Origin: an uncultured archaeon
Lineage (GTDB): Archaea > Aenigmatarchaeota > Aenigmatarchaeia > QMZP01
Direction of reading: 5' to 3'
Length of the DNA: 64,000 bases
NCBI GenBank assembly: GCA_964555875.1
Contig: CAZKUD010000003.1
Location: 14,659 to 78,658 of the forward strand
The notes below the pieces were generated by a model that saw only the letters and a program-made list of their open reading frames with translations, searched no databases and was not told the origin of the DNA. Below are positions 40,614 to 64,000 of the stretch, one piece after another; the first letter of the stretch is position 1; each line of letters starts with the position of its first letter. Position numbers and translations under genes: made by a program.

Positions 40614-41773
40614 AATCTAAACCGGCCGCGCTGCCGGAAGGCATCCTTCTCGGGGCCCCTGCTTCCCAGCCTGAACTGCCTGGACTTCTCGAACTTCTTT
40701 GAAACCTCGGCCTCGAACTTCTGCAGGACTCCCCTGACTGCCTTGGTGACGTCCCAGGCATGGTCGCCGGCAAAGAAATCGCCTTTCTGGGTTATGAGCC
40801 TCCCCTTGACGGAGTATTTTATCCTCTTTCCGTCCTCCTCGTACTTGTCCACATGAAGGACCATGTACTCTATGGGCACGCTCTTGCCCAGCTTCCTGAC
40901 CTCGTTCCTGAGCTGCTCGTCCACAACGGTCTTTATGAAGGCGTCTTCGTCCTGCATCCCGGAAACCGTCACGCGCACGCCGCTGACCCCCCTTGAGAGC
41001 AGCTTGAGCACCTGGACAGGTGTCACTATGCCCTGGAACTTGCCCTTCTCTATTATGGCAGTGTCCGCCCCCCTGTCCATCATGGACTTGACAAGCCTGT
41101 CTATGGGCGTGTCCGGGCCGGCCCTGACAAGGCCTCCCTGCATGATGCTCCTGGAAGAGGCGAGGACCTTTCCAGGCCTTCCTTTGTCGCCCCCGAGCTC
41201 GCCGACCTGCACCCTGGACTTCTTGTCCATCGTGGCCTTCAGAAGGTCCAGGGTGTCTATGATGCCCTCTGCCCTGTCGTCCTTGTCCAGTATCACCAGC
41301 CTGTTCGCCCCGGTCTGCCTCATTATGGAACGGGCCACGTCCAGGCCTTCGTCAGTGCCTATGCAGTAGGGGAACACCATCACCTCAGAGGCTGGCTTCC
41401 CTTTCATGTCCTGCTTCGGGACGAGGGACATGAGGCCCAGCTTGGTGACCATGTGGTATTTGCCGCCCTTGTACATGGGCACAGACTTGTAGCTGTTTAT
41501 CAGCACCGAGTTTATCGTTTCCCTTGCGTCAGCGTCCGGGGAGAACGGGCTTATCGGGTTTATTGCCGCCTTCAGGCTGGATATCTCGGTCTTGTCGGGG
41601 TTCGGTATGCTCCTTTTCACGAGGTCCCTGGACGTTATGGTGCCCAAATACTCATTGCCGTCCGCTATCACCGCTTCGTTCTTCCTCTTCCTGTACATTT
41701 CAGAGGCTACCTTTGAGACAGTGTCGTCCGGCCTGAACACTAGGGCCGGCTCCGCAACGTCAGCCAGATTCAT
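40610..41773 (-). CDS. Protein with tandem CBS domains and a C-terminal HPF/RaiA (S30EA)-like domain
   Basis: CBS-pair patterns repeat over roughly the first 260 aa. The C-terminal roughly 110 aa (VRVTVSG...IEYMVLHVDKYEE...KYSVKGRLITQKGDFFAGDHAWDVTKAVRGVLQKFEAEVSKK) follow the hibernation-factor beta-alpha-beta-beta-beta-alpha pattern by eye. Confidence 0.55.
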   Translation of the reverse strand: MNLADVAEPALVFRPDDTVSKVASEMYRKRKNEAVIADGNEYLGTITSRDLVKRSIPNPDKTEISSLKAAINPISPFSPDADARETINSVLINSYKSVPMYKGGKYHMVTKLGLMSLVPKQDMKGKPASEVMVFPYCIGTDEGLDVARSIMRQTGANRLVILDKDDRAEGIIDTLDLLKATMDKKSRVQVGELGGDKGRPGKVLASSRSIMQGGLVRAGPDTPIDRLVKSMMDRGADTAIIEKGKFQGIVTPVQVLKLLSRGVSGVRVTVSGMQDEDAFIKTVVDEQLRNEVRKLGKSVPIEYMVLHVDKYEEDGKRIKYSVKGRLITQKGDFFAGDHAWDVTKAVRGVLQKFEAEVSKKFEKSRQFRLGSRGPEKDAFRQRGRFRL

Positions 41774-41781
41774 GCTTTATA

Positions 41782-41982
41782 TTATACCCCGCTCTGCTTT
41801 ATCTTTTTCATCTCATTGACTATTTCGCCGGCAAGTATGTTCCTTATCCTCTTTGATTCTATGGGCTTGACTTCTGACAGCACCTTCTTGTTCTTGGCGA
41901 AATCAGTCCCAAACTTGCCTCCGTGCTCCTTTATGAGATCCTTTGCCATTGTCTTTACGGCGGTTGGTTTTACCCTTCCCAT
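41782..41982 (-). CDS. rps17e: 30S ribosomal protein eS17
   Basis: MGRVKPTAVKTMAKDLIKEHGGKFGTDFAKNKKVL...KRIRNILAGEIV is typical of archaeal S17e; 66 aa. Confidence 0.85.
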   Translation of the reverse strand: MGRVKPTAVKTMAKDLIKEHGGKFGTDFAKNKKVLSEVKPIESKRIRNILAGEIVNEMKKIKQSGV

Positions 41983-41983
41983 A

Positions 41984-42055
41984 TGGGGTAGGTGGGAATC
42001 GAACCCACAACACCACGATCTTCAGTCGTGTGCTCTCCCATTGAGCTACTACCCC
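41984..42055 (-). tRNA. tRNA-Phe (anticodon GAA), no intron, CCA not encoded
   Basis: Hand-folded cloverleaf: GGGGTAG TA GCTC AATGGGA GAGC A CACGA CTGAAGA TCGTG GTGTT GTGGG TTCGATT CCCAC CTACCCC A. All four stems are Watson-Crick. Confidence 0.9.
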
Positions 42056-42058
42056 GAG

Positions 42059-42217
42059 CGCCTTGGGAAGGAATTCCCGGCAGGCGGCCCAGGCCGCTTG
42101 CCCTTCGAACCTTCGACCCCACGGTTTCCGCCTGTTTCTTGTTTGGATGAAGCCTTTATGGCGCAAGCCAAAGGCTCCCTTAACAGCCGTGTGCTCTAAC
42201 CGCTGAGCTACCAAGGC
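42059..42217 (-). tRNA. tRNA-Asn (anticodon GTT) with two predicted introns: about 55 nt at 37/38 (42126-42180) and about 31 nt in the T-loop at 59/60 (42073-42103)
   Basis: The exons join to GCCTTGG TA GCTC AGCGGTTA GAGC A CACGG CTGTTAA CCGTG GGGTC GAAGG TTCGAAT CCTTC CCAAGGC G, a perfect cloverleaf. Intron boundaries are ambiguous by +/-1 nt. Confidence 0.75.
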
Positions 42218-42240
42218 AGATATCTAATATTCGTTGCTGA

Positions 42241-42251
42241 TTATTTAAATA
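42241..42251 (-). promoter_or_regulatory. TATA-box-like element upstream of the tRNA-Asn/tRNA-Phe/rps17e unit
   Basis: TTATTTAAATA lies 24-34 nt upstream of tRNA-Asn position 1 (42217), the spacing expected for an archaeal promoter. Confidence 0.4.
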
Positions 42252-42266
42252 GTGTCCGGGGGGCGG

Positions 42267-42863
42267 TCAGACGAGTTCCCATCTCATAGTGCCTATCCTG
42301 GCCCTCAGCATGGAGACGTTGCCGAACATCTCTATCCTGTCGGGCTTGAATTCCATCCTTCCGAGGAAGTTGCCCATCTCCAGCGTCCCGTTGTCGGTGG
42401 TCATGTTGGGGACTATCTCGAACCTCATGCCTGCCAGGGAAAGGGACGTTATCCTCATGCCATCAAGCACTATGCTCTCCATCGGCAGGGTCACCTTCAG
42501 TGATGAGCCCTCCTCTGAGAGGGTCATGGTGTGGTTCAGGAAGTCGGCGCCCATTGTCCCGGAGAACCCTGTCACTTCCGTGCCGCCGGCAGACAGGTCC
42601 ACGCTCGACTCGGGCTTCAGGGAGAACTCATCCGGGTAGAGGATTACCTGCACCGTGCTGGAGCGCGCCTCAGGCTGTTCCAGGAACCCCCCGAAGGGGG
42701 AGCCGCTGAACCAGCTGCTTATCTTCTCTATTATGCCTGACAGCAGGCCCCCGATGCCGCCTTCGCTTGTGCTGGTTTCCCCTCCAGCGGGGCCGCCCAG
42801 GAAGACAGCTGATATGACTATCAGCGCAGCGAATGACGCGCCCAGTATCCTCCAATCTAACAT
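42267..42863 (-). CDS. Hypothetical membrane-anchored/secreted protein
   Basis: N-terminal TM/signal-like segment (ILGASFAALIVISAVFLGG) followed by a Gly/Ser/Thr-rich linker and a beta-rich domain. ATG at 42863 is preferred over 42896. Confidence 0.45.
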   Translation of the reverse strand: MLDWRILGASFAALIVISAVFLGGPAGGETSTSEGGIGGLLSGIIEKISSWFSGSPFGGFLEQPEARSSTVQVILYPDEFSLKPESSVDLSAGGTEVTGFSGTMGADFLNHTMTLSEEGSSLKVTLPMESIVLDGMRITSLSLAGMRFEIVPNMTTDNGTLEMGNFLGRMEFKPDRIEMFGNVSMLRARIGTMRWELV

Positions 42864-54120: not shown

Positions 54121-55287
54121 ATGCTGAGGAGCATACTCTCCGAGAGGGGGCAGGAGCTTCCCGGGATAGTGATAGGCAAGCTCCTGAAGATAGCGGTCGA
54201 GGACAGGTCGGTGGTTTCCCTCGGGCCGGGCGAGCCCGACTTCACGACGCCCAAGGAGATACTGGCGGCTGCAAGGAAGGCCCTGGGAGAGGGCCGCACC
54301 CACTACTCCCCGCCCCAGGGAAGGCTGGAACTGAGGCAGGCGATAGCAGAGAAGCTGAAGAAGGAGAACAGGATAACCGCTGACCCGGACGACATCATAG
54401 TGACCACGGGCTCGACAGAAGGCATACTGCTTTCCCTCATGGCCATGGTTGACCCCGGGGAGGGCGTGCTCCTGACAGACCCGGGCTTCCTAGCGTACAA
54501 GCCCACCATAGAGCTGCTGAGCGGGATGCCGCTCTCCGTGCCCCTGAAGGAGGAGCAGGGATGGCAGATAGACGTGGACGAGCTGGAGCGCGCCATCGTC
54601 CCGGAGAAGACAAACGCGATTATAATAAACACCCCCACCAACCCGACGGGCACGGTCTACACGAAGCAGACCCTGGAGGACATCGCGGACTTTGCGACAG
54701 AGCATGACATCATAATAATATCAGACGAGGCGTACGAGAAGCTGACCTACGACGATGCCAGGCACATTTCCATAGGCTCCCTGAACGGGATGGGGGAAAG
54801 GGTGCTGACCATGCAGTCTGTCTCAAAGACGTACGCGATGGCAGGGTTCAGGGTCGGCTGGCTCCACGGGCCCCAGAAGCTCGTCAAGGCGATGACAAAG
54901 CTCCATCTCTTCTCCACGCTTTCCGCGCCCACTGTTTCCCAGATTGCGGTGACGTCAGCGCTAAGGGGGAAGCAGGCAGCGACCGAAGAGATGAGGAAGG
55001 AGTATGACAGGAGGAGGAAGCTTATTGTCAGGAGGCTCAACAAGATGGGCCTGCACTGCGTGGAGCCCAAGGGCGCATTCTATGCCTTCCCGAAGATATC
55101 GCACCTCACCAAGAAGTCCTCGTTCAAGTTCGCTGAGTGGCTGCTGAAGGAGGGCAAGGTCGCCGTCGTGCCGGGAACAGAGTTCGGAAGGATGGGGGAA
55201 GGCTACATAAGGCTGAGCTACGCGACAGCGTACGAGAAGATAGTCACTGCGATGGGAAGGATGGAGAGGGCACTGAAGAAGCTCTAG
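54121..55287 (+). CDS. Class I/II pyridoxal-phosphate aminotransferase (aspartate aminotransferase family)
   Basis: SLGPGEPDFTTP, NPTNPTG and the PLP-Lys region SVSKTYAMAGFRVGW. ATG at 54121 is preferred over the TTG at 54100. Confidence 0.8.
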   Translation: MLRSILSERGQELPGIVIGKLLKIAVEDRSVVSLGPGEPDFTTPKEILAAARKALGEGRTHYSPPQGRLELRQAIAEKLKKENRITADPDDIIVTTGSTEGILLSLMAMVDPGEGVLLTDPGFLAYKPTIELLSGMPLSVPLKEEQGWQIDVDELERAIVPEKTNAIIINTPTNPTGTVYTKQTLEDIADFATEHDIIIISDEAYEKLTYDDARHISIGSLNGMGERVLTMQSVSKTYAMAGFRVGWLHGPQKLVKAMTKLHLFSTLSAPTVSQIAVTSALRGKQAATEEMRKEYDRRRKLIVRRLNKMGLHCVEPKGAFYAFPKISHLTKKSSFKFAEWLLKEGKVAVVPGTEFGRMGEGYIRLSYATAYEKIVTAMGRMERALKKL

Positions 55288-55658
55288 ACATCCACTGCGT
55301 TCAGGACATCATCCATCGAGAGCCACATGTCCTCGTCATAGTTGCCGTCCGCTATGTGGTTCAGGAGTATCATCTTCCACTTGTCCTGGGGCGGCTTCCA
55401 GGCAAGTATGCCGATGGCGCTCGCCTGCCTGCACCATTCCTGGAAGTCCCTTATCTTGTCCTTTGACAGGCGGGGCATTTTGTTCCAGGCCTTGCTTTCT
55501 ATCGCTATCACAAGACCCTTCTTTATCGCGACTATGTCTGCCGGAGTTAGCCAGCCCCCTGAAGACGCAGCGCGTATGCAGGAGAAGCCCCTCTTGGTCA
55601 GGATGTGCAGGAGGTCCCTCTCGTGCCTGGCGCCCTTGGCGTACGTCTTGATGGGCAT
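55284..55658 (-). CDS. hjc: Holliday junction resolvase Hjc
   Basis: KGARHERDLLHILTKRGFSCIRAASSG...DIVAIKKGLVIAIESKA contains the E...D...ExK nuclease motifs; 124 aa. Confidence 0.8.
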   Translation of the reverse strand: MPIKTYAKGARHERDLLHILTKRGFSCIRAASSGGWLTPADIVAIKKGLVIAIESKAWNKMPRLSKDKIRDFQEWCRQASAIGILAWKPPQDKWKMILLNHIADGNYDEDMWLSMDDVLNAVDV

Positions 55659-55783
55659 GAATACTAATTGTTCTCAAAGGATAAAAGGCAAGGCATAGCA
55701 GCGTTCCGCTATTCCGTTAGGCAGCGGAAGGCTTATATCTTTTTCTGGCGTGGGTTTTTATAACATTAAGACAAATATCGAAC

Positions 55784-56509
55784 ATGGATAACATGACTGA
55801 CGAACTGGCCGTCAGCCGCAGGGGCCTGGCCAAGGACATAGTCGGCGAGATAGTGCTATCTGATTCTCCCGAGCGCGTGATAAAGAAGTGGAGGGAGATA
55901 TTCAAGGTCTCCCAGAAGCGCCTCGCTCAGAGCCTGGGCATAACGTCGTCGGTGATAAGCGACTATGAGTCAGGGAGAAGGAGGTCCCCCGGCATAAAGG
56001 TGGTCAACAAGTATGTCAGCTCCCTTCTGGACATAGACCTGGAGCGGGGAGGCAACATCATAAAGAGCTTCTCCAAGGACGGCCCCCCGCCAGGCATGTC
56101 AGACGCCATACTGGACATGAGGGAACTCGAGGGCGGGGTGAGCGTGAACAGGTTTTGTAAGAGCATAAGCGCCTCTCTCCTCACAGACAGCCAGTCGAGC
56201 AAGCCCCTGTATGGCTACACCATCATAGACTCATTCAAGGCGATAACAGAGTTCTCGTTCAAGGAGCTTGTGCGGCTTTACGGCGCCACCACACAGAGGG
56301 CGCTGGTCTTCACCAAGGTGGAGACAGGAAGGACCCCAATGGTCGCAATCAAGCTCACAGGCCTGCAGCCGGCTCTGGTGGTGCTCCATGGGCTGGACAC
56401 GGTCGACGACGTCGCAAAGAGGATAGCAGAGGTAGAGGGCATACCCCTCGCTGTCTGCAGGCTGGATAACGCAGACAATATAGTGGAGGCCCTGACATCC
56501 ATTAAGTGA
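55784..56509 (+). CDS. XRE-type helix-turn-helix transcriptional regulator with a C-terminal uncharacterised domain
   Basis: KVSQKRLAQSLGITSSVISDYESGRR is a Cro/C1 HTH pattern. Confidence 0.65.
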   Translation: MDNMTDELAVSRRGLAKDIVGEIVLSDSPERVIKKWREIFKVSQKRLAQSLGITSSVISDYESGRRRSPGIKVVNKYVSSLLDIDLERGGNIIKSFSKDGPPPGMSDAILDMRELEGGVSVNRFCKSISASLLTDSQSSKPLYGYTIIDSFKAITEFSFKELVRLYGATTQRALVFTKVETGRTPMVAIKLTGLQPALVVLHGLDTVDDVAKRIAEVEGIPLAVCRLDNADNIVEALTSIK

Positions 56510-57184
56510 TTACAGCTTGGTTTGTTTTGACTCGCAGGACGCCTTTCCCGCCTTTATCTCCACCATGCCATAATAGCCGTCATAGACCGGGCCAGGATAA
56601 AAGAGCGTGGTGCCCCCCAGCCGGTCCTCTCCCCTGTTCTCATGTATGTGGGCGGAGATGGCCAGAAGCGGCTTCTTGGATTCTATGAATGCGCGTATCG
56701 CCTGGGATCCCACGTGGCCTCCCTTCGTCTTGTCCAGCTTGGTGTCCTTCGGGGGGCTGTGCACGACGAGGACGAACCCCCTGGGCGCCTTGGAAGAGAG
56801 CCTGTCCAGCCAGGCCGCAGTCTCCTTCTCGCTCGGCTCTATTATCGTGTTGAAGGGCGTCGCTGCGCCGCCGAACCCCAGGAAAGTGGTGCCCCCCCGC
56901 TTCTCTGTGGTGCAGTGGAGGTTAACCCCGTAGTTCCTGAACAGTTCTATTATCTCATACGGGTCATGGTTGCCGGGGACACATAGCACGGGCTTGCCTA
57001 TCGCAAGCAGCTGCTGAAGCACCATGTTGGCGACGTCCATCTGGGTGAAGTCCTGGGGGACACTGAACATGTCAGTGACGTCTCCGGGACAGACCACCAG
57101 GTCGAAGTCCTTTCCGGCAGCGTCTATCACCTTGGACAGCGCCCGCCTCTCACCATGTATATCAGCGAGTACCAGTATCCTCAT
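56510..57184 (-). CDS. Calcineurin-like metallophosphoesterase
   Basis: MRILVLADIHG, CPGDVTD, VPGNHD and HSPP motifs. Confidence 0.75.
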   Translation of the reverse strand: MRILVLADIHGERRALSKVIDAAGKDFDLVVCPGDVTDMFSVPQDFTQMDVANMVLQQLLAIGKPVLCVPGNHDPYEIIELFRNYGVNLHCTTEKRGGTTFLGFGGAATPFNTIIEPSEKETAAWLDRLSSKAPRGFVLVVHSPPKDTKLDKTKGGHVGSQAIRAFIESKKPLLAISAHIHENRGEDRLGGTTLFYPGPVYDGYYGMVEIKAGKASCESKQTKL

Positions 57185-57274
57185 ACTACTAATTGAAGCC
57201 TAATATTAAAAAATGCCTGACACCACGGTTTCCTGTGGAACTTGCCTTTTTTCTTTATTTCAGTTCTTTCAAAG

Positions 57275-57290
57275 TATTACAGTGTAATAT
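57275..57290. repeat. 16-nt palindromic element TATTACAGTGTAATAT, copy 1
   Basis: Exact duplicate of 57383-57398. Arms TATTAC/GTAATA surround a 3-4 nt centre. Confidence 0.8.
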
Positions 57291-57382
57291 TTAGAAATAG
57301 TTTTATAATACCCGATTTCCATAAGAAATAAAGGTGTCTGGGGTCCACATGAAATGAGGTGATCGTGGGCGCAGAGTACCGA

Positions 57383-57398
57383 TATTACAGTGTAATAT
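57383..57398. repeat. 16-nt palindromic element TATTACAGTGTAATAT, copy 2
   Basis: Exact duplicate of 57275-57290, 108 bp downstream. It lies about 57 nt upstream of the cdc6 ATG and about 30 nt upstream of a TATA-like ATTTAAA (57427-57433). Confidence 0.8.
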
Positions 57399-57454
57399 AA
57401 CAGGAGGGAAGAAACCCACAACAAGAATTTAAACCCCGGTTTCATATAGAGATT

Positions 57455-58654
57455 ATGGTCCAACAAACCCTGGGCGACATCTTCAGCGGCTATGTGCAGA
57501 AGGCAGGAGCGGTCTTCTCCAACAGGAACATCCTGTCACATGACCACATGCCTGAGCAGGCCATGCACAGGGACGAGCAGATGCAGCACCTTGCCACCAT
57601 ACTTGCCCCCTCCATACAGGGAGCCCGCCCCTCCAACGTGTTCCTCTACGGCAAGACCGGGACAGGCAAGACCCTGGTCGCCAGGCAGGTGACCAAGGAG
57701 CTGGAGAAGGCGTCTGACAGGGTGGTTGTGCTGTACATGAACTGCAAGATGAAGAGGGTGGCTGACACAGAGTACAGGCTTTTCGCAGAGCTCTCCCGGG
57801 AGCTCGGCAAGACCGTGCCCGCCACCGGCCTGCCGACAGACGAGGTGTACAGGATATTCTACGAGGCAATCGACTCCAGGCCCCAGAACGTCATACTCGT
57901 GCTAGACGAGATAGATGCCCTGGTCAGGAAGGTCGGCGACGAAATACTCTACAACCTCACCAGGGTCAATACAGAGCTGAAGCAGGCCAGGCTCTCGATG
58001 GTAGGCATCTCTAACAACATATCCTTCATAGAGTCCCTTGATTCCAGGGTGAAGTCCTCCCTCTCCGAGGAGGAGATAATATTCCCCCCATACAACGCCA
58101 ACCAGCTGAAGGACATCCTGTCCACCAGGGCAGAGAAGGCCTTCCACTCAGGCGCGCTCGGCGGCGGGGTGATAGAGAAGTGTGCCGCCCTGGCAGCACA
58201 GGAGCACGGCGACGCAAGAAAGGCGCTGGACCTGCTTCGGGTTGCAGGAGAGATGGCGGAGAGGAAGAAGGAGCCGACAGTGACATCGGGCTTCGTCGAT
58301 GCAGCGGAAGACAAGTTAGACCTGGACAGGACCACAGAGGTGGTGCAGGCACAGCCCAAGCAGTCCCTGGCCGTCCTTGCGGGCATCCTCAAGCTGACGG
58401 ACAAGGGAGAGAAGGACATCCAGACAGGGGACATCTTCCTGGAATATGAAAAGATATCAGCCAAGTGCGGCCTCAAGCCCCTCACCCAGAGGAGGGTCTC
58501 CGACCTTATAGCCGAGCTGGACATGCTGGGCATAATAAACGCAAAGGTGATATCAAAGGGCCGCTACGGAAGGACAAGGGAGATAAGGATACTCCTTGCA
58601 AGGCCCGCTGTGGAGAAGATACGGAGGGTGCTGGAAAGGAACTACCTGGTTTGA
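57455..58654 (+). CDS. cdc6: Orc1/Cdc6 replication initiator
   Basis: Walker A YGKTGTGKT, Walker B ILVLDEID, sensor regions and a C-terminal winged helix; 399 aa. Confidence 0.9.
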   Translation: MVQQTLGDIFSGYVQKAGAVFSNRNILSHDHMPEQAMHRDEQMQHLATILAPSIQGARPSNVFLYGKTGTGKTLVARQVTKELEKASDRVVVLYMNCKMKRVADTEYRLFAELSRELGKTVPATGLPTDEVYRIFYEAIDSRPQNVILVLDEIDALVRKVGDEILYNLTRVNTELKQARLSMVGISNNISFIESLDSRVKSSLSEEEIIFPPYNANQLKDILSTRAEKAFHSGALGGGVIEKCAALAAQEHGDARKALDLLRVAGEMAERKKEPTVTSGFVDAAEDKLDLDRTTEVVQAQPKQSLAVLAGILKLTDKGEKDIQTGDIFLEYEKISAKCGLKPLTQRRVSDLIAELDMLGIINAKVISKGRYGRTREIRILLARPAVEKIRRVLERNYLV

Positions 58655-58656
58655 TT

Positions 58657-59559
58657 ATGGACAAGAGGGAGATAGTGAGGAAGGCGCTGGAAAGGGGCGT
58701 GATGGTTTCCCCCGAGGCGCTTGAGGGCGCCGACTGGTCAGATATAGACTCGGTACTGGAGGAGGCCAAGCACATGCTAGTATACGGGTCCCCTGCGGGC
58801 GAAAAGAGGGGCCCAAACGTTTCTGTCAAGGAATCCGTCCCGAAGGCCAGGCTGAAGCCGAAGGACGTGGCGGACTTCTACAGCCAGAAATACAAGGCCA
58901 TGAGGCAGCTGCTGCTGAAGAAAGTCAAGGCAGTATCCATCAACAAGGCCCAGGACCTCAAATCAGGCGTGTCGGTCATAGGCATAGTGAAGGAACTGAC
59001 GCCCTCCGGCGCCGTCCTCGAGGACCAGACAGGCGAGATAGACGCCATAGGAAAGATTGATGCCGGAGAGGGCGATGTCCTGGGCGCCAAAGGCCAGGTA
59101 AGGGAGGGCAAGGTGATGGTTTCCGAAACCGTCTGGCCCGATGTCCCCCTTGTCAGGAAGCCCGGACGCATACATAACACGACCCTCCTCCTCACCTCAA
59201 AGGATGAGAAGGACGCGGACGTCATATTCTCCTCCTCAGGGGCAGAGGGCGCGACCCACGTTTCCCATTCCCCCACCTGGCTGACAGTCTCCAACAACGG
59301 CTCCTCCCTGACCGTGCTCGCCTACAAGACGGGCGAGAAGGACCTGAAGGCTGCTGCAGGCTGGCTCAAGAAGCGGTGCCTCCCGCACGAGGAGGTCCCT
59401 GGCCCGAAGAACCTTCACGTGATAGACCCTGTTCCTGACATCCTCTGGCTGATAGGGCCGCCTGCAGGGAAGGAGATTTACAAGGGAGTCTTAATAGTCT
59501 CCTGCGGAGAGGGCTCAGCCAAGGTCAACCTAGAGACGCTGGAAGCGGAGTTCAAGTAG
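58657..59559 (+). CDS. Short PolD small-subunit (DP1/B-subunit)-like protein: N-terminal helical domain plus OB fold, with degenerate or absent phosphoesterase motifs
   Basis: The N-terminus MDKREIVRKALERGVMVSPEALE resembles DP1 N-termini. OB-like segment VSVIGIVKELTPSGAVLEDQTGEIDAIG. The remaining roughly 160 aa lack the DxH/GDxxDG/GNHD motifs. The start is 2 nt after the cdc6 stop. Confidence 0.45.
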   Translation: MDKREIVRKALERGVMVSPEALEGADWSDIDSVLEEAKHMLVYGSPAGEKRGPNVSVKESVPKARLKPKDVADFYSQKYKAMRQLLLKKVKAVSINKAQDLKSGVSVIGIVKELTPSGAVLEDQTGEIDAIGKIDAGEGDVLGAKGQVREGKVMVSETVWPDVPLVRKPGRIHNTTLLLTSKDEKDADVIFSSSGAEGATHVSHSPTWLTVSNNGSSLTVLAYKTGEKDLKAAAGWLKKRCLPHEEVPGPKNLHVIDPVPDILWLIGPPAGKEIYKGVLIVSCGEGSAKVNLETLEAEFK

Positions 59560-59758
59560 AGTCCTTTTCTTCCCTTCTCCGCTCCTCAATGTTCCTGAAG
59601 TATTCGTCCCTTATCTGGTGCTCATTGTTCCTGCTCATATACTTCCAGCAGCCGTAGCCCGCAATCCCCATGAATGTAAGTGCCGGCAAGCCTATCATTA
59701 TGATCTCGTCCAGATACCCGCCAATGCCATCGAGCATAACAATTCTTGTCGCAAACAT
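59552..59758 (-). CDS. Small hypothetical membrane protein (68 aa)
   Basis: One TM segment (IIMIGLPALTFMGIAGYGCW) and a charged tail. It lies directly downstream of the TctA-like gene on the same strand. Confidence 0.3.
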   Translation of the reverse strand: MFATRIVMLDGIGGYLDEIIMIGLPALTFMGIAGYGCWKYMSRNNEHQIRDEYFRNIEERRREEKDST

Positions 59759-59767
59759 TCTTAAGCC

Positions 59768-60982
59768 TTACATGAGGCCGAAGTAGAACAGCATGATGGG
59801 CAGCATCAGGACCCCCATACAGCTGGTCCTCTTCACGCCAAACAGGGGAGGGAGGAGGCCTATGGACGTTGAAGTCACCATATACAGCATGCCGATGGGC
59901 CCTGTCATCAGCGCCACCATGCCGACCAGCATGACTATTATGGCCACCGACACCCTCCTGTAATCAAGCCTCTGGAACAGCCTGGCGAACCCCCTTCCGG
60001 CCCTTATTGTAAGGAAGGCCCCTGCCCCGGCAGAGAACAGGGCAGTCGCCATCAGGAGCAGCATCTCCCCGTAGCCGAAGTTCACGAGCACCTCCTGGAC
60101 AGCTACCGCAGCCCCTGACCTTGGCCTGGATATCAGGTACAGCGCCATGAGGGAGAACAGCGCTGCCACAGTGTTTATGCCTCCCAGGGAAACCATGAAC
60201 TCCCTAATCGACTTCCTCATGGAGAGCTCATGCGCCAGCACCCCTGCCTGCGCGGCGCCTATCCCGGGCAGCACTCCCATGAGCATGCCTGAGAAGAACC
60301 CCTTCACGCTTCCCATCACAGTCTCCTTCACAGGAAGCCTCACAGGAGCCTGGCTCTGCCTGGGCACCGATATGCCGGAGCCTATGCTTATAATTAGTGT
60401 GCTTATCCCGAACAGTCCAGTGAAGATGGGAAACAGCATGCTCTGATCTGGCAATAATGGCGTCTCCATTGTCATGACACCCAATATACCGGAAAGCCCG
60501 AACACAATCAGGCCATAGACCCTCTTCATCCCCTCATCCAGAAGTATCATGACCCCGGCTATCGCCAGCAGGAGCCAGGCCATGTATGACTTGATTCCCA
60601 TATATAGTATGGGCAGGACAACGGAGACCAGAGGGAACAGGACAACTGACAGCATGATAACGCCCAGCCCGCCCGCCACTGTCAGGCATACCGCCTCCTG
60701 CGCCTGGCCCTTCAGCAGGAACCTGTGCCCAGGCAGGACAGAGAGGGCGGTCTCCCCTTCCGGCGCGCCTATGAACACAGACGGTATGAAGTTAAGGAAA
60801 GTGTTGGAGATGGCCATCGATGTGACGAACACAGCTATAGCGTGAGGCGTGAAGAAGAGCAGGAGCGAGGAGGTGGATGCTAGCATGACTGCAGCCACAG
60901 TGTTCGGGTGTACCCCGGGTATCAGGCCTGTGAATGTGCCTCCCAACACCCCAATCATGGCCATTAGCGCGAACTCCATCAT
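59768..60982 (-). CDS. TctA/DUF112-family integral membrane protein (putative transporter)
   Basis: 404 aa, highly hydrophobic, with GLIPGVHPNT and LPGIGAAQAGV motifs typical of DUF112/TctA. Confidence 0.6.
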   Translation of the reverse strand: MMEFALMAMIGVLGGTFTGLIPGVHPNTVAAVMLASTSSLLLFFTPHAIAVFVTSMAISNTFLNFIPSVFIGAPEGETALSVLPGHRFLLKGQAQEAVCLTVAGGLGVIMLSVVLFPLVSVVLPILYMGIKSYMAWLLLAIAGVMILLDEGMKRVYGLIVFGLSGILGVMTMETPLLPDQSMLFPIFTGLFGISTLIISIGSGISVPRQSQAPVRLPVKETVMGSVKGFFSGMLMGVLPGIGAAQAGVLAHELSMRKSIREFMVSLGGINTVAALFSLMALYLISRPRSGAAVAVQEVLVNFGYGEMLLLMATALFSAGAGAFLTIRAGRGFARLFQRLDYRRVSVAIIVMLVGMVALMTGPIGMLYMVTSTSIGLLPPLFGVKRTSCMGVLMLPIMLFYFGLM

Positions 60983-61347
60983 AGTCCCAGGCTGTCAGCC
61001 AGTATCTCCACGCTCCCCTTGTACATCCCCACCTTTCCCAGCGCGCATATGTTGTCCCCCTCCTTGAGGGAGTAGGGGTTGCCTGTCATTCCCCTGGCAG
61101 TGCCATTGAACACGACCACGCTGATGGTTCCTGTCTCGTCAGTCAGCCTGAAGAAGAGATGGTTGTTCTTCGAAACATGCTTGTATGTTATGTTCCCGCA
61201 TACCTTTGCTGCCACGCCTGTCATGTCCCCTGTGACGCCGCCTATCTCCAGTGCGTTCTCAGACACCTGGCCTGAAACCAGGAATATCGAGAGCAGCCCA
61301 AGGAGCGAGCAGGCAAGGGAGAGCTTCAGGAGCCCTGATTCCTCCAT
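60979..61347 (-). CDS. Membrane-anchored OB-fold (tRNA_anti-like) protein
   Basis: N-terminal TM segment, then FFRLTDETGTISVVVFNG...LKEGDNICALGKVGMYKGSVEI, an OB-fold pattern. ATG at 61347 is preferred. ATGA-type overlap with the downstream gene. Confidence 0.55.
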   Translation of the reverse strand: MEESGLLKLSLACSLLGLLSIFLVSGQVSENALEIGGVTGDMTGVAAKVCGNITYKHVSKNNHLFFRLTDETGTISVVVFNGTARGMTGNPYSLKEGDNICALGKVGMYKGSVEILADSLGL

Positions 61348-61398
61348 AATGAATCCTTCTCCCGGCCTCAGATATGCCTGACGTTGAGGGAGAATCAA

Positions 61399-61625
61399 CC
61401 TGAATGTTTACTTCACACCCCTTCATTTCACATGGAACATTACGTCACATGAACTTCACCCCCTCGTTTCAGGTGGAAAAGTCCGCATGATGTCGAAATG
61501 AAATTCACATGAAGACACCCTTGTTTCATGTGCAACACCCGTTAACTTCATGTCCAGCTTCAGAATCCTTCATTTCCAGGCGTGAACAAGAGATTACGCA
61601 GAATCAGCAGGAATGAAGGTAATGT
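61399..61625. repeat. Intergenic cluster of ORB-like short repeats (core TTCAYRTG, several followed by a CACCC string)
   Basis: TTTCACATGGAA (61426-61437), GTCACATGAACTTCACCCCC (61444-61463), TTTCAGGTGGAAAA (61467-61480), TTCACATGAAGACACCC (61504-61520), TTTCATGTGCAACACCC (61524-61540), CTTCATGTCCAGC (61546-61558). CCTTCATTTC occurs twice (about 61419 and 61567). Confidence 0.6.
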
Positions 61626-64000
61626 TCAGTTCACGACAGCCTCAGCAGGCCCGTTGGCTGAGGCGAAATTGAGCTTGCCCCCGCAGCTGCAGGTTCCCAT
61701 CAGGGGCATCCTCTGGTAATGCTTGCTGCATTTTGAGCACAGGAAGCCCGTCATCTCATCCTTCTTGATACTTTTCATCACCTTGGGCCCATCCTCCGCA
61801 GCATTCGCTGCCCTCCCCTTCCTGAGTATGTCCAGCAGGCCCACTTGCTTGCCCCCTCCCATCAGCTCGGACTTCGTGATGCCCATGGCACCGAATATCC
61901 TCTCCAGGGGAGGCATGAGCTGGTTGTCTATATAATAAGAGGCGTCTATCTGCAGCCCCTTCTCCTTTATGTATGATGGGTCCTCTGCCCTCTTGCTCAG
62001 CATCTCCTTGCCCTTCACTATGACGTACTCTATCCTGTCCCCCACGCCAGGGGCGTCTACAGCGTTCCTGGCTTTCATTTTGGTGACAAGCTCTATGTGC
62101 GGCTGCACCCCCTTGTAGTGCTTGGGCGCCTTGGTCATGGTCTTGGTGATTATCAGCTTGCTTATGTCTATCTTCCCTGCCAGCAGGTCGTCTATCACAC
62201 CCTTGAAATACTTCATGGCCCCCTTCACGTCCTCCTGCTTCAGTATTATCTCTATGACCTCCTTGAGGGTCTCTCCCACCAGCTTGCACCAGTCCCTCCT
62301 AACGGTCTCTATGCCCTTCATCTCCAGGCCCTCGTCCCATCCCTCCTTCGTCCTCTCGAACTTCCAGGCAGCGTACCTCTTCTTGGTGAGGGGCAGGAAC
62401 CTCTTGAATATCTTCTCGAACTCCAGCTCCTGGGTGCCCAGCAGGTTCGCCGTTATCTCCCCCGCTATCTTGTCTGCTATCCTCCCCATCTCATCCATGT
62501 CCTCTATGCCCTTGAGCTTGGCGAAGACGGAATCAGTGTCCCCGTACACTATCTGGTAGCCGTACTTCTTCTCGACGACGTCTTTGGTGTTGTGTATGGT
62601 CTCCCTGCCTATTGAGGTGATGGAATTTGCTATGTCCAGGTCGAACAGCTTTGACCTGGCGTACCCGAAGTATCCGTACATGGCATTGGCCATTATCTTC
62701 AGCGCCCATTGCTTGGCGTGCATCTCCCTGTGCTTGTTCTCGTCCTTCACGTCCTTCATGGCCTTCTTCACGGCCCCCCTCTCGTTCATGAGGGTCTCCA
62801 GGAGGTCCGGCACTATGCCCCTCTTCCTCTCCTTCTTGAGGAACCATGTCCCCGCAGGCGTGATGGTAAGGTCCTCCTTCTTCACGCCCGCCTCCTCTTC
62901 CTGCCCCTGGTTGACCTTGGTCGTCGGGCAGATGTTGAACGACCTTATGATGGAGGGGTACATGGACTTGAAGTCCAGCACAGCCACGGACGAATGCAGG
63001 CCCTTCACCGGCTCCAGCACCGCCCCTCCTCCCAGCTCCTCTTTCCTTCCCAGGCCTCTCTTCGCTGCCGTGGCATCGTCGGGCTTGCATGGGAATACAT
63101 ACCCCTTCTGGTTGAACACCCTCAGCATGTAGTTCTCTATCCTTGTGGTCTCCCCGGAATCCAGGGTGTCCTGCAGCAGCGTGCCCGACACCTTTGAAAG
63201 AGCGGTGTGCTTGTCTATCAGCTTCATCTTCTGCACAAGGTCCAGCGCCAGCTGCGAGTCCTTCCTGCAGTATTCTGCCAGCTTCCTGAACTCCTCGTCG
63301 CTTCCCTTCCAGAACTTCTCTATCTCCGAGTGCTTCACGTCCTCCTTCTGCTCCCCGATGAGGGCATTGGCCACGAAGTTCAGGCTGTACCTCTGGAGGG
63401 AGAAGTCCTTCTTCACTATGGCGAAGGAGTCCAGCGCTATCCTTCCGGTCAGGTTGACCTTTGTGCTTATGCCTATCTTCCTGTGCGACGTCCTCTTCTG
63501 CAGGCACCTCCCCAGGAACGGCTTAACGTCAAGCTTGTACATCCTGTCGAGTATGTAGGGGAAGTCGAAGTTGTTGCAGTTGTAGCCTGTCATGAAGTCA
63601 GGGTCATACCTCTTCACCATCTTCACGAACTCTTCCAGCATCCCGCTCTCAGAATCGAACGACATCACATTGTCCCCCTTCCTCGTGCTCAGAACCACGG
63701 ACTTGTTGCCCTCGAACGGGTGGCTGAACACCAGGGAAACCATTATGATGGGGTCCTTCTTGGGGTCCGGAAGGGCTCCAGAGGAAGACACGCACTCCAG
63801 GTCGAATGCCAGGTACTTCAGGTCAGCATTCCCGCCCTTGTCTATGGGCACAAGCTTCTTCACGGTGAACTTCTTGTCAGCCTGGACGGTTTCCGTGTTC
63901 GCGAACTGGTCCCCCTCGGTCCTGCACCACCCCATGCCCGACAGGCCCATGTCAGCCATGACCCTGTACTTGAAGAGGACGTCCGCCTCGTATACCGTTA
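61626..64000 (-). CDS. polB: Family B DNA polymerase (PolB), 5' end beyond the window
   Basis: Exo I FDLE, motif A DFKSMYPSII, motif B KIMANAMYGYFG and motif C YGDTDS. The frame stays open upstream of the listed Met to the window edge (..YEADVLFKYRVMADMGL..). Confidence 0.9.
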   Translation of the reverse strand, partial: TVYEADVLFKYRVMADMGLSGMGWCRTEGDQFANTETVQADKKFTVKKLVPIDKGGNADLKYLAFDLECVSSSGALPDPKKDPIIMVSLVFSHPFEGNKSVVLSTRKGDNVMSFDSESGMLEEFVKMVKRYDPDFMTGYNCNNFDFPYILDRMYKLDVKPFLGRCLQKRTSHRKIGISTKVNLTGRIALDSFAIVKKDFSLQRYSLNFVANALIGEQKEDVKHSEIEKFWKGSDEEFRKLAEYCRKDSQLALDLVQKMKLIDKHTALSKVSGTLLQDTLDSGETTRIENYMLRVFNQKGYVFPCKPDDATAAKRGLGRKEELGGGAVLEPVKGLHSSVAVLDFKSMYPSIIRSFNICPTTKVNQGQEEEAGVKKEDLTITPAGTWFLKKERKRGIVPDLLETLMNERGAVKKAMKDVKDENKHREMHAKQWALKIMANAMYGYFGYARSKLFDLDIANSITSIGRETIHNTKDVVEKKYGYQIVYGDTDSVFAKLKGIEDMDEMGRIADKIAGEITANLLGTQELEFEKIFKRFLPLTKKRYAAWKFERTKEGWDEGLEMKGIETVRRDWCKLVGETLKEVIEIILKQEDVKGAMKYFKGVIDDLLAGKIDISKLIITKTMTKAPKHYKGVQPHIELVTKMKARNAVDAPGVGDRIEYVIVKGKEMLSKRAEDPSYIKEKGLQIDASYYIDNQLMPPLERIFGAMGITKSELMGGGKQVGLLDILRKGRAANAAEDGPKVMKSIKKDEMTGFLCSKCSKHYQRMPLMGTCSCGGKLNFASANGPAEAVVN

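What the first reader, a model, noticed from the sequence alone, without database searches (positions are those of the whole stretch)
57185..57454. Candidate oriC: inverted ORB-like elements flanking an AT-rich core directly upstream of orc1/cdc6
Seen: the 270-bp non-coding spacer between a metallophosphoesterase gene and cdc6 contains three related elements. They are CACGGTTTCCTGTGGAAC (57224-57241), its inverted relative GGGGTCCACATGAAATGAGGTG (57340-57361) and a third, CCCCGGTTTCATATAGAG (57434-57451), in the same orientation as the first. The first two bracket an AT-rich stretch of about 95 bp (57242-57335) rich in T-tracts. The dyad core TCCACAKGAAA with an adjacent G/C string resembles archaeal origin recognition boxes (the TCCAGTGGAAA type). 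Established: archaeal origins typically lie next to orc1/cdc6, with inverted ORBs around a DNA unwinding element.
Basis: partly seen in the sequence, partly recalled or inferred. Interest (0 to 1): 0.6.

Follow-up and report, generated by a model that had tools for sequence, protein, structure and literature searches.

The report
Archaeal replication origin beside cdc6
The 270-bp gap upstream of the orc1/cdc6 gene of this uncultured DPANN archaeon (Aenigmatarchaeota) is very probably its chromosomal replication origin, of the standard archaeal design, with an added conserved palindrome whose binding protein is unknown.

Summary
The three elements are real, at the stated coordinates, and far beyond chance. 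One is a fourth origin recognition box (ORB, 57316-57339), the true inverted partner of the first. The other is two identical 16-bp palindromes (PAL, 57275-57290 and 57383-57398).

Corrected layout: ORB-a(-) | 75-bp 24% GC unwinding element with PAL1 at its centre | ORB-b(+) ORB-c(+) | PAL2 | TATA box | ORB-d(-) | cdc6 ATG.

- The boxes fit the archaeal ORB consensus: TTCCA-N3-GAAAY followed by a GGKGT string.
- The adjacent protein is an Orc1-1 orthologue.
- The layout recurs upstream of cdc6 in about 35 related genomes. The ORB-to-PAL distance is fixed at 45-52 bp in 27 loci and exactly 57 bp in one family.
- A replication-type strand-composition switch maps to this locus in G000 and in most relatives tested. 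Its polarity is opposite to Pyrococcus and Sulfolobus. Gene orientation still favours an origin over a terminus.
- PAL also occurs 1-41 times per genome, mostly just upstream of genes. Its closest analogue is the Sulfolobus ucm/UBP origin element.

Verdict: a supported, essentially ordinary oriC1-type origin with a lineage-specific accessory element. No binding or marker-frequency data could be obtained.

The parts
55784..56509 (+). XRE-type HTH protein (241 aa), syntenic with the origin; speculative candidate PAL binder
   Evidence: Pfam HTH_3. Single copy in 39 of 41 relatives and usually within 1-2.5 kb of cdc6 on the origin side. Its recognition helix does not covary with the PAL variant.
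56510..57184 (-). Metallophosphoesterase gene, transcribed divergently from cdc6
   Evidence: Pfam Metallophos, 1.7e-19. The same 224-aa gene flanks the origin in most relatives. It keeps a PAL upstream even when unlinked from cdc6 (G036, G012).
57203..57213 (-). Putative TATA box of the phosphoesterase gene (TTTTTAATAT on the - strand), about 23 nt from its ATG
   Evidence: Read from the sequence; inference, no transcript data.
57216..57241 (-). ORB-a: GTTCCACAGGAAAC-CGT-GGTGTCAGG (dyad 57229-57239, G-string on the side away from the AT-rich core)
   Evidence: (I1, I4). Conserved in the same-genus genome G001.
57242..57316 (.). AT-rich core, the putative duplex unwinding element (75 bp, 24% GC; genome 56%)
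   Evidence: The equivalent inter-ORB region in relatives is 6-26% GC.
57275..57290 (.). PAL1: palindrome TATTACA-G-TGTAATA(T). Its centre is 48 bp from the ORB-a dyad centre and 41 bp from the ORB-b dyad centre
   Evidence: The ORB(-)-to-PAL distance is 45-52 bp in 27 loci and 57 bp in the 4 loci of family f6.
57316..57339 (+).
   Evidence: (I1). Its core and G-string match an ORB in relative G028 exactly (L026).
57343..57361 (+).
57383..57398 (.). PAL2: second identical copy of the 16-bp palindrome, 40 bp upstream of the cdc6 TATA box
57428..57433 (+). Putative cdc6 TATA box (TTTAAA), about 24 nt before the ATG, implying a leaderless mRNA
   Evidence: Sequence. The block TTTAAACC..TTTCATATRGA followed by about 4 nt and the ATG recurs in about 10 relatives. 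Inference, no transcript data.
57434..57451 (-).
57455..58654 (+). orc1/cdc6 initiator gene, an Orc1-1 orthologue
   Evidence: Pfam Cdc6_lid and Cdc6_C. NF001625 at 499.9 bits and TIGR02928 at 425.7 bits. Best PDB matches are 2qby_A (Sso Cdc6-1, 2.8e-102) and 2v1u_A (Ape ORC1, 5.3e-98), with a nearly identical winged-helix wing GRYGRTREI.
58657..59559 (+). DP1-like (PolD small subunit / B-subunit-like) gene coupled to cdc6
   Evidence: Weak NCBIfam match to DNA polymerase II small subunit, 2.1e-12 over the OB region. No PolD large subunit in 21 genomes of the order.
61414..61535 (-). Second ORB cluster: three full ORBs in direct orientation plus TTCAYRTG repeats. It lies in the 61399-61625 spacer between an OB-fold gene and polB
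   Evidence: Comparable second clusters lie 3.5-7.6 kb from the cdc6 spacer in G034, G036, G029, G012, G039 and G005.

Best explanation
The spacer 57185-57454 is the chromosomal replication origin (oriC1 type) of an Aenigmatarchaeota genome.

Inferred mechanism:
1. Monomers of the adjacent Orc1-1 orthologue bind four polar ORBs. The winged-helix domain contacts the TCCA-N3-GAAA dyad and the AAA+ ISM contacts the GGKGT string.
2. ORB-a (-) and ORB-b (+) are inverted, with their dyads facing a 75-bp, 24% GC unwinding element. ATP-bound Orc1 would load MCM there.
3. A palindrome (PAL1) sits at the centre of that element, a conserved ~49 bp from the ORB-a dyad. A dimeric sequence-specific protein, not yet identified, probably binds it and modulates origin firing and/or the two divergent promoters.
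4. ORB-d lies between the cdc6 TATA box and the start codon, and the ORB-a G-string abuts the phosphoesterase TATA box. Orc1 occupancy should therefore also repress cdc6 (autoregulation) and its divergent neighbour.
5. A second ORB cluster 4 kb downstream (61414-61535) brackets cdc6, as in Thermococcales. It may extend the Orc1 nucleoprotein complex or act as a regulatory sink.

Shown here: the sequence elements, their non-random clustering, their conservation and fixed spacing, the identity of the initiator, and a strand-composition switch at the locus. Inferred: binding, unwinding, MCM loading, autoregulation and the role of PAL.
For: ORBs:
- They match the archaeal consensus CTTCCAGTGGAAACGAAAGGGGT and the Methanomassiliicoccales ORBs in dyad, spacing and G-string.
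- All 7 extended-pattern hits in the window, and the only clusters in the genome, lie at this locus.
- ORB-a and ORB-b form 25-nt inverted arms 76 nt apart. The GC content between the dyads is 24%.

Initiator:
- It is closest to the two Orc1 proteins solved on ORB DNA, and the DNA-binding wing is conserved.

Conservation:
- In same-genus G001 all four ORBs, both PALs and the TATA/ORB-d block are kept, while the stretches between them hold most of the substitutions and the gaps.
- The order ORB(-), PAL, ORB(+), cdc6 recurs in 31 of 36 loci across six families.

Strand asymmetry:
- Third-position amino/keto skew differs between genes pointing away from and toward the locus: pooled p = 2.6e-55, G000 contig p = 2.9e-8.
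- The orientation-corrected switch lies -93, +222, -3 and -12 bp from the spacer in G034, G039, G003 and G012, and -2.0 kb in G000 (permutation p = 0.001).
- C3 is the only large G000 contig with a V-shaped curve; the other contigs are nearly all monotonic or level off.
- Genes prefer the strand that would be leading if this is the origin: 54% of genes and 57% of coding bp in G000 (p = 0.024); 85 against 42 genes in G034C2 and 35 against 17 in G005C1.

Other:
- The second Orc1 paralogue (C5) has no ORBs upstream.
Against: - No experimental evidence exists: no Orc1 binding, no marker frequency, no initiation-point mapping.
- The skew polarity is the reverse of Pyrococcus abyssi and Sulfolobus, whose mapped origins sit at MK-disparity maxima. 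Here the locus is an MK minimum. On the usual rule that the leading strand is G+T-rich, it would read as a terminus.
- Plain GC skew and cumulative gene orientation on the G000 contig alone are uninformative.
- The G000 switch is 2-3 kb from the spacer, not on it.
- In G036 and G005 the switch coincides with the second ORB cluster rather than the cdc6-proximal one.
- Two contigs (G029C6, G027C5) show no significant corrected switch.
- The assembly is 89% complete and lies in 15 contigs, so another origin in a gap cannot be excluded.
Confidence: 0.85

Rival explanations
1. The spacer is only a divergent promoter and operator region. Orc1 at the ORBs and a PAL-binding factor regulate cdc6 and the phosphoesterase gene. 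Replication starts elsewhere, for example at the second ORB cluster (61414-61535) or at an unassembled locus.
For: ORB-d and the ORB-a G-string overlap the two core promoters. Outside the origin, PAL behaves like an operator, 17-100 bp upstream of gene starts. In G036C1 and G005C1 the skew switch sits at the second cluster.
Against: In G000 the second cluster has direct, not inverted, ORBs and lacks the long T/A-rich tracts of the cdc6 spacer. The cdc6-proximal spacer has the inverted pair and the 24% GC core. In four relatives the switch falls within 0.2 kb of the cdc6 spacer. Dual promoter and origin roles are normal for archaeal oriC1, so the two readings do not exclude each other.
Confidence: 0.08
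2. The locus is the replication terminus, or a fork-pausing site created by Orc1-bound ORBs. The strand asymmetry then follows the usual rule, with a G+T-rich leading strand.
For: The MK disparity is at a minimum here, whereas mapped origins of P. abyssi and Sulfolobus lie at maxima.
Against: Genes would then be preferentially head-on to replication: 57% of coding bp in G000 and 68-74% on G034C2 and G005C1, which would be very unusual for a prokaryote. The switch is sharp (within about 0.2 kb of the spacer) in four genera, whereas archaeal termination is generally held to be diffuse (from general knowledge, not checked here). ORB pairs next to orc1 mark the mapped origins covered in the papers read here. 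No other ORB cluster exists in the assembly.
Confidence: 0.04
3. The repeats are chance similarities or remnants of a mobile element carrying its own orc1, not the chromosomal origin.
For: Extra orc1/origin pairs in archaeal chromosomes have been attributed to captured extrachromosomal elements.
Against: Clustering is far beyond chance. The gene order HTH, phosphoesterase, spacer, cdc6, DP1-like is conserved across six families with 51-65% Orc1 identity. The initiator is the conserved Orc1-1 type.
Confidence: 0.02

Closest known systems
Sulfolobus/Saccharolobus oriC1 (ORB3-DUE-ORB2 bound by Orc1-1, with the ucm element bound by UBP; PMC12141716)
   Same: Inverted polar ORBs flank an AT-rich unwinding element next to an Orc1-1 gene. 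A separate short sequence motif lies inside that element. The same motif also occurs at many other, mostly intergenic, genomic sites.
   Different: The ucm is an 11-bp motif bound by a UBP monomer. PAL is a 7-1-7 palindrome, which implies a dimer. PAL copy number is 1-41 per genome rather than more than 300. PAL keeps a fixed ~49-bp distance to one ORB. No PAL binder has been identified, and a UBP homologue was not searched for.
Thermococcales oriC (Pyrococcus abyssi/furiosus; PMC1904270)
   Same: Gene order oriC, cdc6, dp1. The cdc6 gene lies between two ORB clusters inside a region of about 5 kb. ORBs share the TTCC...GAA core plus a G/C string.
   Different: In Pyrococcus the second cluster lies inside dp1. 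Here it lies 2.7 kb past cdc6, between an OB-fold gene and polB. Here DP1 is a 300-aa remnant and PolD DP2 is absent. Skew polarity is opposite.
Archaeal consensus ORB (Pelve et al. 2013) and Methanomassiliicoccales ORBs (PMC4153887, Table 2)
   Same: TTCCA-N3-GAAA(C/T), then 2-4 nt, then a GGGGT-like string. The boxes occur in inverted pairs next to orc1/cdc6.1.
   Different: The central triplet is variable (CAG, TAA, CAT, TAT) rather than GTG. The G-string is mostly GGTGT.
Haloarcula hispanica oriC2 with a downstream ORB cluster acting as a negative regulator (PMC4010727)
   Same: An additional ORB cluster a few kb from the origin.
   Different: A regulatory role for the cluster at 61414-61535 is untested.

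Membership tests
Archaeal oriC1-type origin (ORB-DUE-ORB next to orc1/cdc6) | Repeated ORB elements with the conserved dyad core (TTCCA-N3-GAAA) and a 3' G-string | tested here: met
   Four ORBs in 57216-57451 fit the consensus quoted.
Archaeal oriC1-type origin (ORB-DUE-ORB next to orc1/cdc6) | At least one ORB pair in inverted orientation flanking an AT-rich unwinding element | tested here: met
   ORB-a(-) and ORB-b(+) are 25-nt inverted arms 76 nt apart. The 75 bp between them are 24% GC against 56% for the genome.
Archaeal oriC1-type origin (ORB-DUE-ORB next to orc1/cdc6) | Adjacent cognate initiator gene of the Orc1-1 clade | tested here: met
   cdc6 starts 4 nt after ORB-d. Best PDB hits are Sso Cdc6-1 and Ape ORC1. 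TIGR02928 scores above its cut-off.
Archaeal oriC1-type origin (ORB-DUE-ORB next to orc1/cdc6) | Conservation of the elements in orthologous positions in related genomes | tested here: met
   31 of 36 loci show the ORB(-)-PAL module, and the same-genus alignment shows footprints.
Archaeal oriC1-type origin (ORB-DUE-ORB next to orc1/cdc6) | Strand-composition switch at the locus | tested here: met
   A switch is present at or near the locus in 7 of 9 contigs. Its sign is opposite to Pyrococcus and Sulfolobus. Gene orientation supports an origin.
Archaeal oriC1-type origin (ORB-DUE-ORB next to orc1/cdc6) | Specific Orc1 binding to the ORBs, and replication initiation in vivo (marker frequency, initiation-point mapping, autonomous replication) | not testable with these tools
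The organism is uncultured.
ucm/UBP-type origin accessory element (Sulfolobales) | Sequence motif inside the unwinding element between inverted ORBs, also dispersed at many intergenic sites | tested here: met
   PAL lies at the centre of the inter-ORB region. There are 1-41 copies per genome against 0-1 for the control pattern. Most copies are intergenic.
ucm/UBP-type origin accessory element (Sulfolobales) | Same motif sequence, with a monomeric UBP-type binder | tested here: not met
   PAL is a 7-1-7 palindrome, unlike the 11-bp ucm that a UBP monomer binds. The two are analogous, not the same family. The presence of a UBP homologue was not tested.

The most novel reading that the evidence does not exclude
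PAL and an unidentified dimeric binder form an independently evolved, Aenigmatarchaeota-wide origin co-factor system analogous to ucm/UBP. It sits a fixed ~49 bp from the Orc1-bound ORB, leaving a gap of about 36 bp that might hold one MCM hexamer (my own estimate). It would gate helicase loading or egress. The same factor would act as operator-binding regulator of genes around the origin, such as polB, the phosphoesterase gene and cdc6, so coupling origin firing to replication-gene expression. Candidate binders are the origin-linked XRE-HTH protein and the divergent Orc1 paralogue. Separately, this PolD-less lineage would replicate with an inverted leading-strand composition bias (A+C-rich).
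Probability: 0.3. Interest if true: 0.7.

Novelty: new variant of a known kind. Interest (0 to 1): 0.45.

Why it matters
None of the papers found in the literature searches run here describes a replication origin of a DPANN archaeon; genomes are simply rotated to orc1. This locus gives a concrete, phylogenetically footprinted origin model for Aenigmatarchaeota, with four ORBs, an unwinding element and promoter overlaps.

It also shows that a second, non-Orc1 sequence element sits inside the unwinding element at a fixed distance from an ORB. That is the arrangement recently shown to be essential in Sulfolobus (ucm/UBP), but here with an unrelated, palindromic motif. If functional, accessory origin factors would be a recurrent, independently evolved feature of archaeal origins.

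The reversed skew polarity in a lineage lacking PolD is a testable oddity for models of replication-associated mutation bias. In practice, the origin coordinate allows correct rotation and skew-based checking of assemblies in this group.

Tried and rejected
- Plain cumulative GC skew and Z-curve on the G000 contig alone were noisy, with no clear V in GC skew.
- Cumulative gene orientation on C3 showed no inflection.
- Rfam found no RNA family in 55000-62500.
- A hairpin or cruciform role for PAL looks unlikely. The single-strand hairpins are weak, -2.5 to -2.7 kcal/mol, so sequence-specific protein recognition is favoured.
- Covariation between the PAL variant (ATTAC in G000/G001, ATAAC elsewhere) and the recognition helix of the origin-linked XRE-HTH protein was tested. 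The helix is identical in both groups, so this gives no support.
- A second origin next to the Orc1 paralogue on C5 is not supported: the spacer is short and has no ORBs.
- PAL was compared from memory with known operator types (Fur-type 7-1-7 boxes, NrdR boxes, SurR and others). Nothing convincing emerged, and these are recollections, not tests.
- A parS-like enrichment of PAL near the origin is only marginal once the origin copies are removed (hand counts).
- No literature search for the PAL sequence itself was attempted.

Full report
OBSERVATION

The window is contig C3:14659-78658 of a 1.09-Mb, 15-contig, 56% GC, 89%-complete assembly. Relatives found with the Orc1 protein are titled Candidatus Aenigmatarchaeota.

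The flanking genes are a calcineurin-type metallophosphoesterase (56510-57184, -) and an Orc1/Cdc6 (57455-58654, +).

- A fourth box, TTTCCATAAGAAATAAAGGTGTCT (57316-57339, +), lies inside the supposed 95-bp AT-rich core. It forms 25-nt inverted arms with the first box (CCTGACACCACGGTTTCCTGTGGAA, 57216-57240), 76 nt apart.
- Two identical 16-bp palindromes, TATTACAGTGTAATAT (PAL), occupy 57275-57290 and 57383-57398.

The corrected map is:
- phosphoesterase ATG (57184, -)
- TATA-like box (57203-57213, -)
- ORB-a (57216-57241, -)
- 75-bp AT-rich core (57242-57316, 24% GC) with PAL1 at its centre
- ORB-b (57316-57339, +)
- ORB-c (57343-57361, +)
- PAL2 (57383-57398)
- TTTAAA (57428-57433)
- ORB-d (57434-57451, -)
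- cdc6 ATG (57455)

IS IT MORE THAN CHANCE?

The pattern TCCANNNGAAAYNNNGG (up to 1 mismatch) hits the window 7 times, against about 3 expected. All 7 hits fall in two spacers: 4 in 57223-57450 and 3 in 61420-61534. In the whole assembly there are 34 hits, and those two spacers are the only clusters.

The G000 form of PAL (ATWACANTGTWAT) occurs at six sites in 1.09 Mb, two of them here. From base composition I estimate about 0.1 expected; that is my own arithmetic, not a tool result.

WHAT THE BOXES ARE

The archaeal consensus ORB is CTTCCAGTGGAAACGAAAGGGGT. Methanomassiliicoccales ORBs read GTTCCAGTGGAAATGG-AGGGGT (PMC4153887 Table 2). Pyrococcus ORBs share the invariant TTCC and GAA cores plus a C/G string (PMC1904270).

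Read on their own strands, the window's boxes are:
- ORB-a: GTTCCACAGGAAAC-CGT-GGTGT
- ORB-b: TTTCCATAAGAAAT-AAA-GGTGT
- ORB-c: GGTCCACATGAAAT-GA-GGTGA
- ORB-d: CTCTATATGAAAC-CG-GGGT

They have the same dyad, the same 3-nt centre length and the same 3' G-string. In the inverted pair ORB-a/ORB-b, the dyads face the AT-rich core and the G-strings point away.

The adjacent protein is an Orc1-1 orthologue. Its best PDB matches are S. solfataricus Cdc6-1 (2qby_A, 2.8e-102) and A. pernix ORC1 (2v1u_A, 5.3e-98). Both were crystallised on ORB DNA, which I state from general knowledge. The winged-helix wing is almost unchanged: GRYGRTREI against GRYGKTKEI and GRYGKTREV.

A second, divergent Orc1 paralogue on contig C5 has a short upstream spacer with no ORB.

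COMPARATIVE EVIDENCE

Orc1 orthologues (51-89% identity) were located in 40 relatives spanning six families of one order. Upstream regions were read in 35 of them.

The same layout recurs: an ORB on the minus strand, a palindrome ATAACAnTGTTAT, one or more ORBs on the plus strand, and often an ORB fused to TTTAAA just before the ATG.

In the same-genus genome G001, all four ORBs, both PALs and the TATA/ORB-d block are kept, while the stretches between them hold most of the substitutions and the gaps.

The distance from the minus-strand ORB dyad centre to the PAL centre is 45-52 bp in 27 loci (mode 49-50). It is exactly 57 bp in the four loci of family f6. The PAL-to-next-ORB distance varies from 15 to 66 bp, and the intervening DNA is 6-26% GC. 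The fixed spacing, set against unconserved intervening sequence, argues for a physical constraint between whatever binds the ORB and whatever binds PAL.

G000 and G001 carry a symmetric variant (ATTAC...GTAAT) at every site. Another Aenigmatarchaeota-like record has ATTACAGCGTAAT. Thermoplasmata and Syntrophoarchaeum loci have no PAL.

Plain GC skew on the G000 contig is uninformative. The amino/keto (MK) disparity behaves differently.

Raw MK disparity:
- The cumulative minimum lies within 0.2 kb of the cdc6 spacer in G034C2, G003C3, G027C5 and G012C16.
- It lies within 2.2-3.5 kb in G039C2, G000C3 and G005C1.

Third codon positions, used to separate replication from transcription effects:
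- Genes pointing away from the spacer are A+C-rich. Genes pointing toward it are not.
- Pooled means are +0.086 against -0.041 (p = 2.6e-55).
- G000C3 gives +0.071 against -0.008 (p = 2.9e-8).

Orientation-corrected cumulative curve:
- The minimum lies -93, +222, -3 and -12 bp from the spacer in G034, G039, G003 and G012.
- It lies -2.0 kb away in G000 (permutation p = 0.001), +3.5 kb in G005 and -5 kb in G036.
- There is no significant signal in G029C6 or G027C5.

Across all G000 contigs the corrected curves are nearly all monotonic or level off. C3 is the only large contig with a V. This is what one origin in the assembled sequence would give.

POLARITY CAVEAT

In P. abyssi and Sulfolobus, mapped origins lie at MK maxima. 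Here the locus is a minimum. Either the leading strand is A+C-rich in this lineage, or the locus is a terminus.

- In G000, 54% of genes and 57% of coding bp lie on the strand that would be leading if this is the origin (p = 0.024).
- On G034C2 the counts are 85 against 42 genes, and on G005C1 they are 35 against 17.

The sharpness of the switch and its coincidence with the only ORB clusters and the initiator gene point the same way. I put the terminus reading at about 4%.

The order lacks a PolD large subunit (0 of 21 genomes). That is a possible but untested correlate of the unusual polarity.

THE PALINDROME

PAL is not origin-specific. ATAACANTGTTAT occurs 1-41 times per genome in 35 of 41 genomes, against 0-1 for the control pattern.

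On nine contigs, nearly all non-origin copies are intergenic, 17-100 bp upstream of start codons. The downstream genes include:
- the 224-aa phosphoesterase, even where it is unlinked from cdc6 (G036, G012)
- polB (G003)
- the TctA-like membrane gene that neighbours cdc6 in G000
- unrelated genes such as IPP isomerase and a mevalonate-pathway enzyme (named by eye, not by a family search)

PAL hairpins are weak, so a dimeric sequence-specific protein is the likely reader.

The closest known analogue is the Sulfolobus ucm. It is an 11-bp motif inside the oriC1 unwinding element, required for origin activity. It is bound by UBP, which contacts MCM and also binds more than 300 mostly intergenic sites (PMC12141716). 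UBP binds as a monomer to its 11-bp site, so PAL is an analogue and not a member of that family.

One candidate binder is the XRE-HTH protein at 55784-56509. It is single-copy in 39 of 41 genomes and nearly always within 1-2.5 kb of cdc6 on the origin side. Its recognition helix does not covary with the PAL variant, so this remains speculation. The divergent Orc1 paralogue is another candidate.

SECOND ORB CLUSTER

The spacer 61399-61625, between an OB-fold gene and polB, holds three full ORBs in direct orientation plus TTCAYRTG repeats. It lacks the long T/A-rich tracts of the cdc6 spacer.

Comparable clusters lie 3.5-7.6 kb from the cdc6 spacer in six relatives. In G036 it is an inverted pair. 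In G036 and G005 the skew switch sits there.

With cdc6 bracketed by two ORB clusters and followed by a dp1-like gene, the locus resembles the Thermococcales arrangement. A regulatory role like that proposed for the ORB cluster downstream of Haloarcula oriC2 is also possible.

The resolution of the skew data cannot decide which cluster hosts the first unwinding. The AT-rich inverted-ORB module makes 57242-57316 the better candidate in G000.

MECHANISM

The mechanism is inferred. Orc1-1 monomers bind the polar ORBs. The inverted ORB-a/ORB-b pair directs MCM loading onto the 75-bp core. PAL1 and its binder sit in the middle, 48 bp from the ORB-a dyad centre and 41 bp from the ORB-b dyad centre.

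ORB-d lies between the predicted TATA box and the start codon, and the mRNA is predicted to be leaderless. That position gives Orc1 autorepression. The ORB-a G-string abuts the divergent phosphoesterase TATA box. None of the binding or transcription steps has been observed.

VERDICT

As an origin it is an ordinary member of a well-known kind. Three features make it a variant worth a modest follow-up: the fixed-spacing palindrome inside the unwinding element, the twin ORB clusters, and the reversed skew polarity.

Noticed in passing
G000 whole genome; relatives G034C2, G003C3, G012C16, G039C2: The replication-associated strand asymmetry has the opposite sign to Pyrococcus and Sulfolobus. The strand running away from the cdc6 locus is A+C-rich at third codon positions, so the locus is an MK-disparity minimum rather than a maximum.
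   Followed up: partly
window 58657-59559 and 61626-63959+: The gene after cdc6 is a 300-aa DP1-like protein: only its OB region matches the PolD small subunit, and Pfam finds no domain, phosphoesterase or other. The PolD large subunit is absent from 21 genomes of the order. PolB lies 2 kb away and ends in a Cys-rich tail. This may be a PolB plus B-subunit pairing.
   Followed up: partly
window 55784-56509: An XRE-HTH protein of 241 aa is single-copy in 39 of 41 relatives and almost always sits within 1-2.5 kb of cdc6 on the origin side, in either orientation. This conserved linkage is unexplained.
   Followed up: partly
window 61399-61625; G036C1:12460-12760; G034C2:90440-90720: The second ORB clusters carry an extra short repeat, TTCAYRTGAA / CGTGAAC (E-box-like). 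In G034 the cluster is flanked by two PAL copies.
   Followed up: partly
G000 C1:30919, C3:146806, C5:64984, C7:4: These are the four non-origin PAL copies in G000, all outside the ORFs called there (one lies at a contig end). One abuts a TTTAAA box 36 bp upstream of a small HTH gene that is divergent from a small ORF (107 aa) followed by a KaiC/RadA-like ATPase gene. One lies between a tRNA gene and a LAGLIDADG-like ORF. Gene names here are by eye, not from a family search.
   Followed up: partly
window 55284-55658: A Holliday junction resolvase gene (Hjc) lies in the same cluster, so cdc6, the DP1-like gene, polB, an OB-fold protein and hjc all sit within 9 kb of the origin as a replication island.
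   Followed up: no
G000 C5:~41600-42689: A divergent Orc1/Cdc6 paralogue (350 aa, about 32% identical to Orc1-1, with an altered winged-helix wing) is present in most relatives. It has no ORBs nearby, and its role is unknown.
   Followed up: partly
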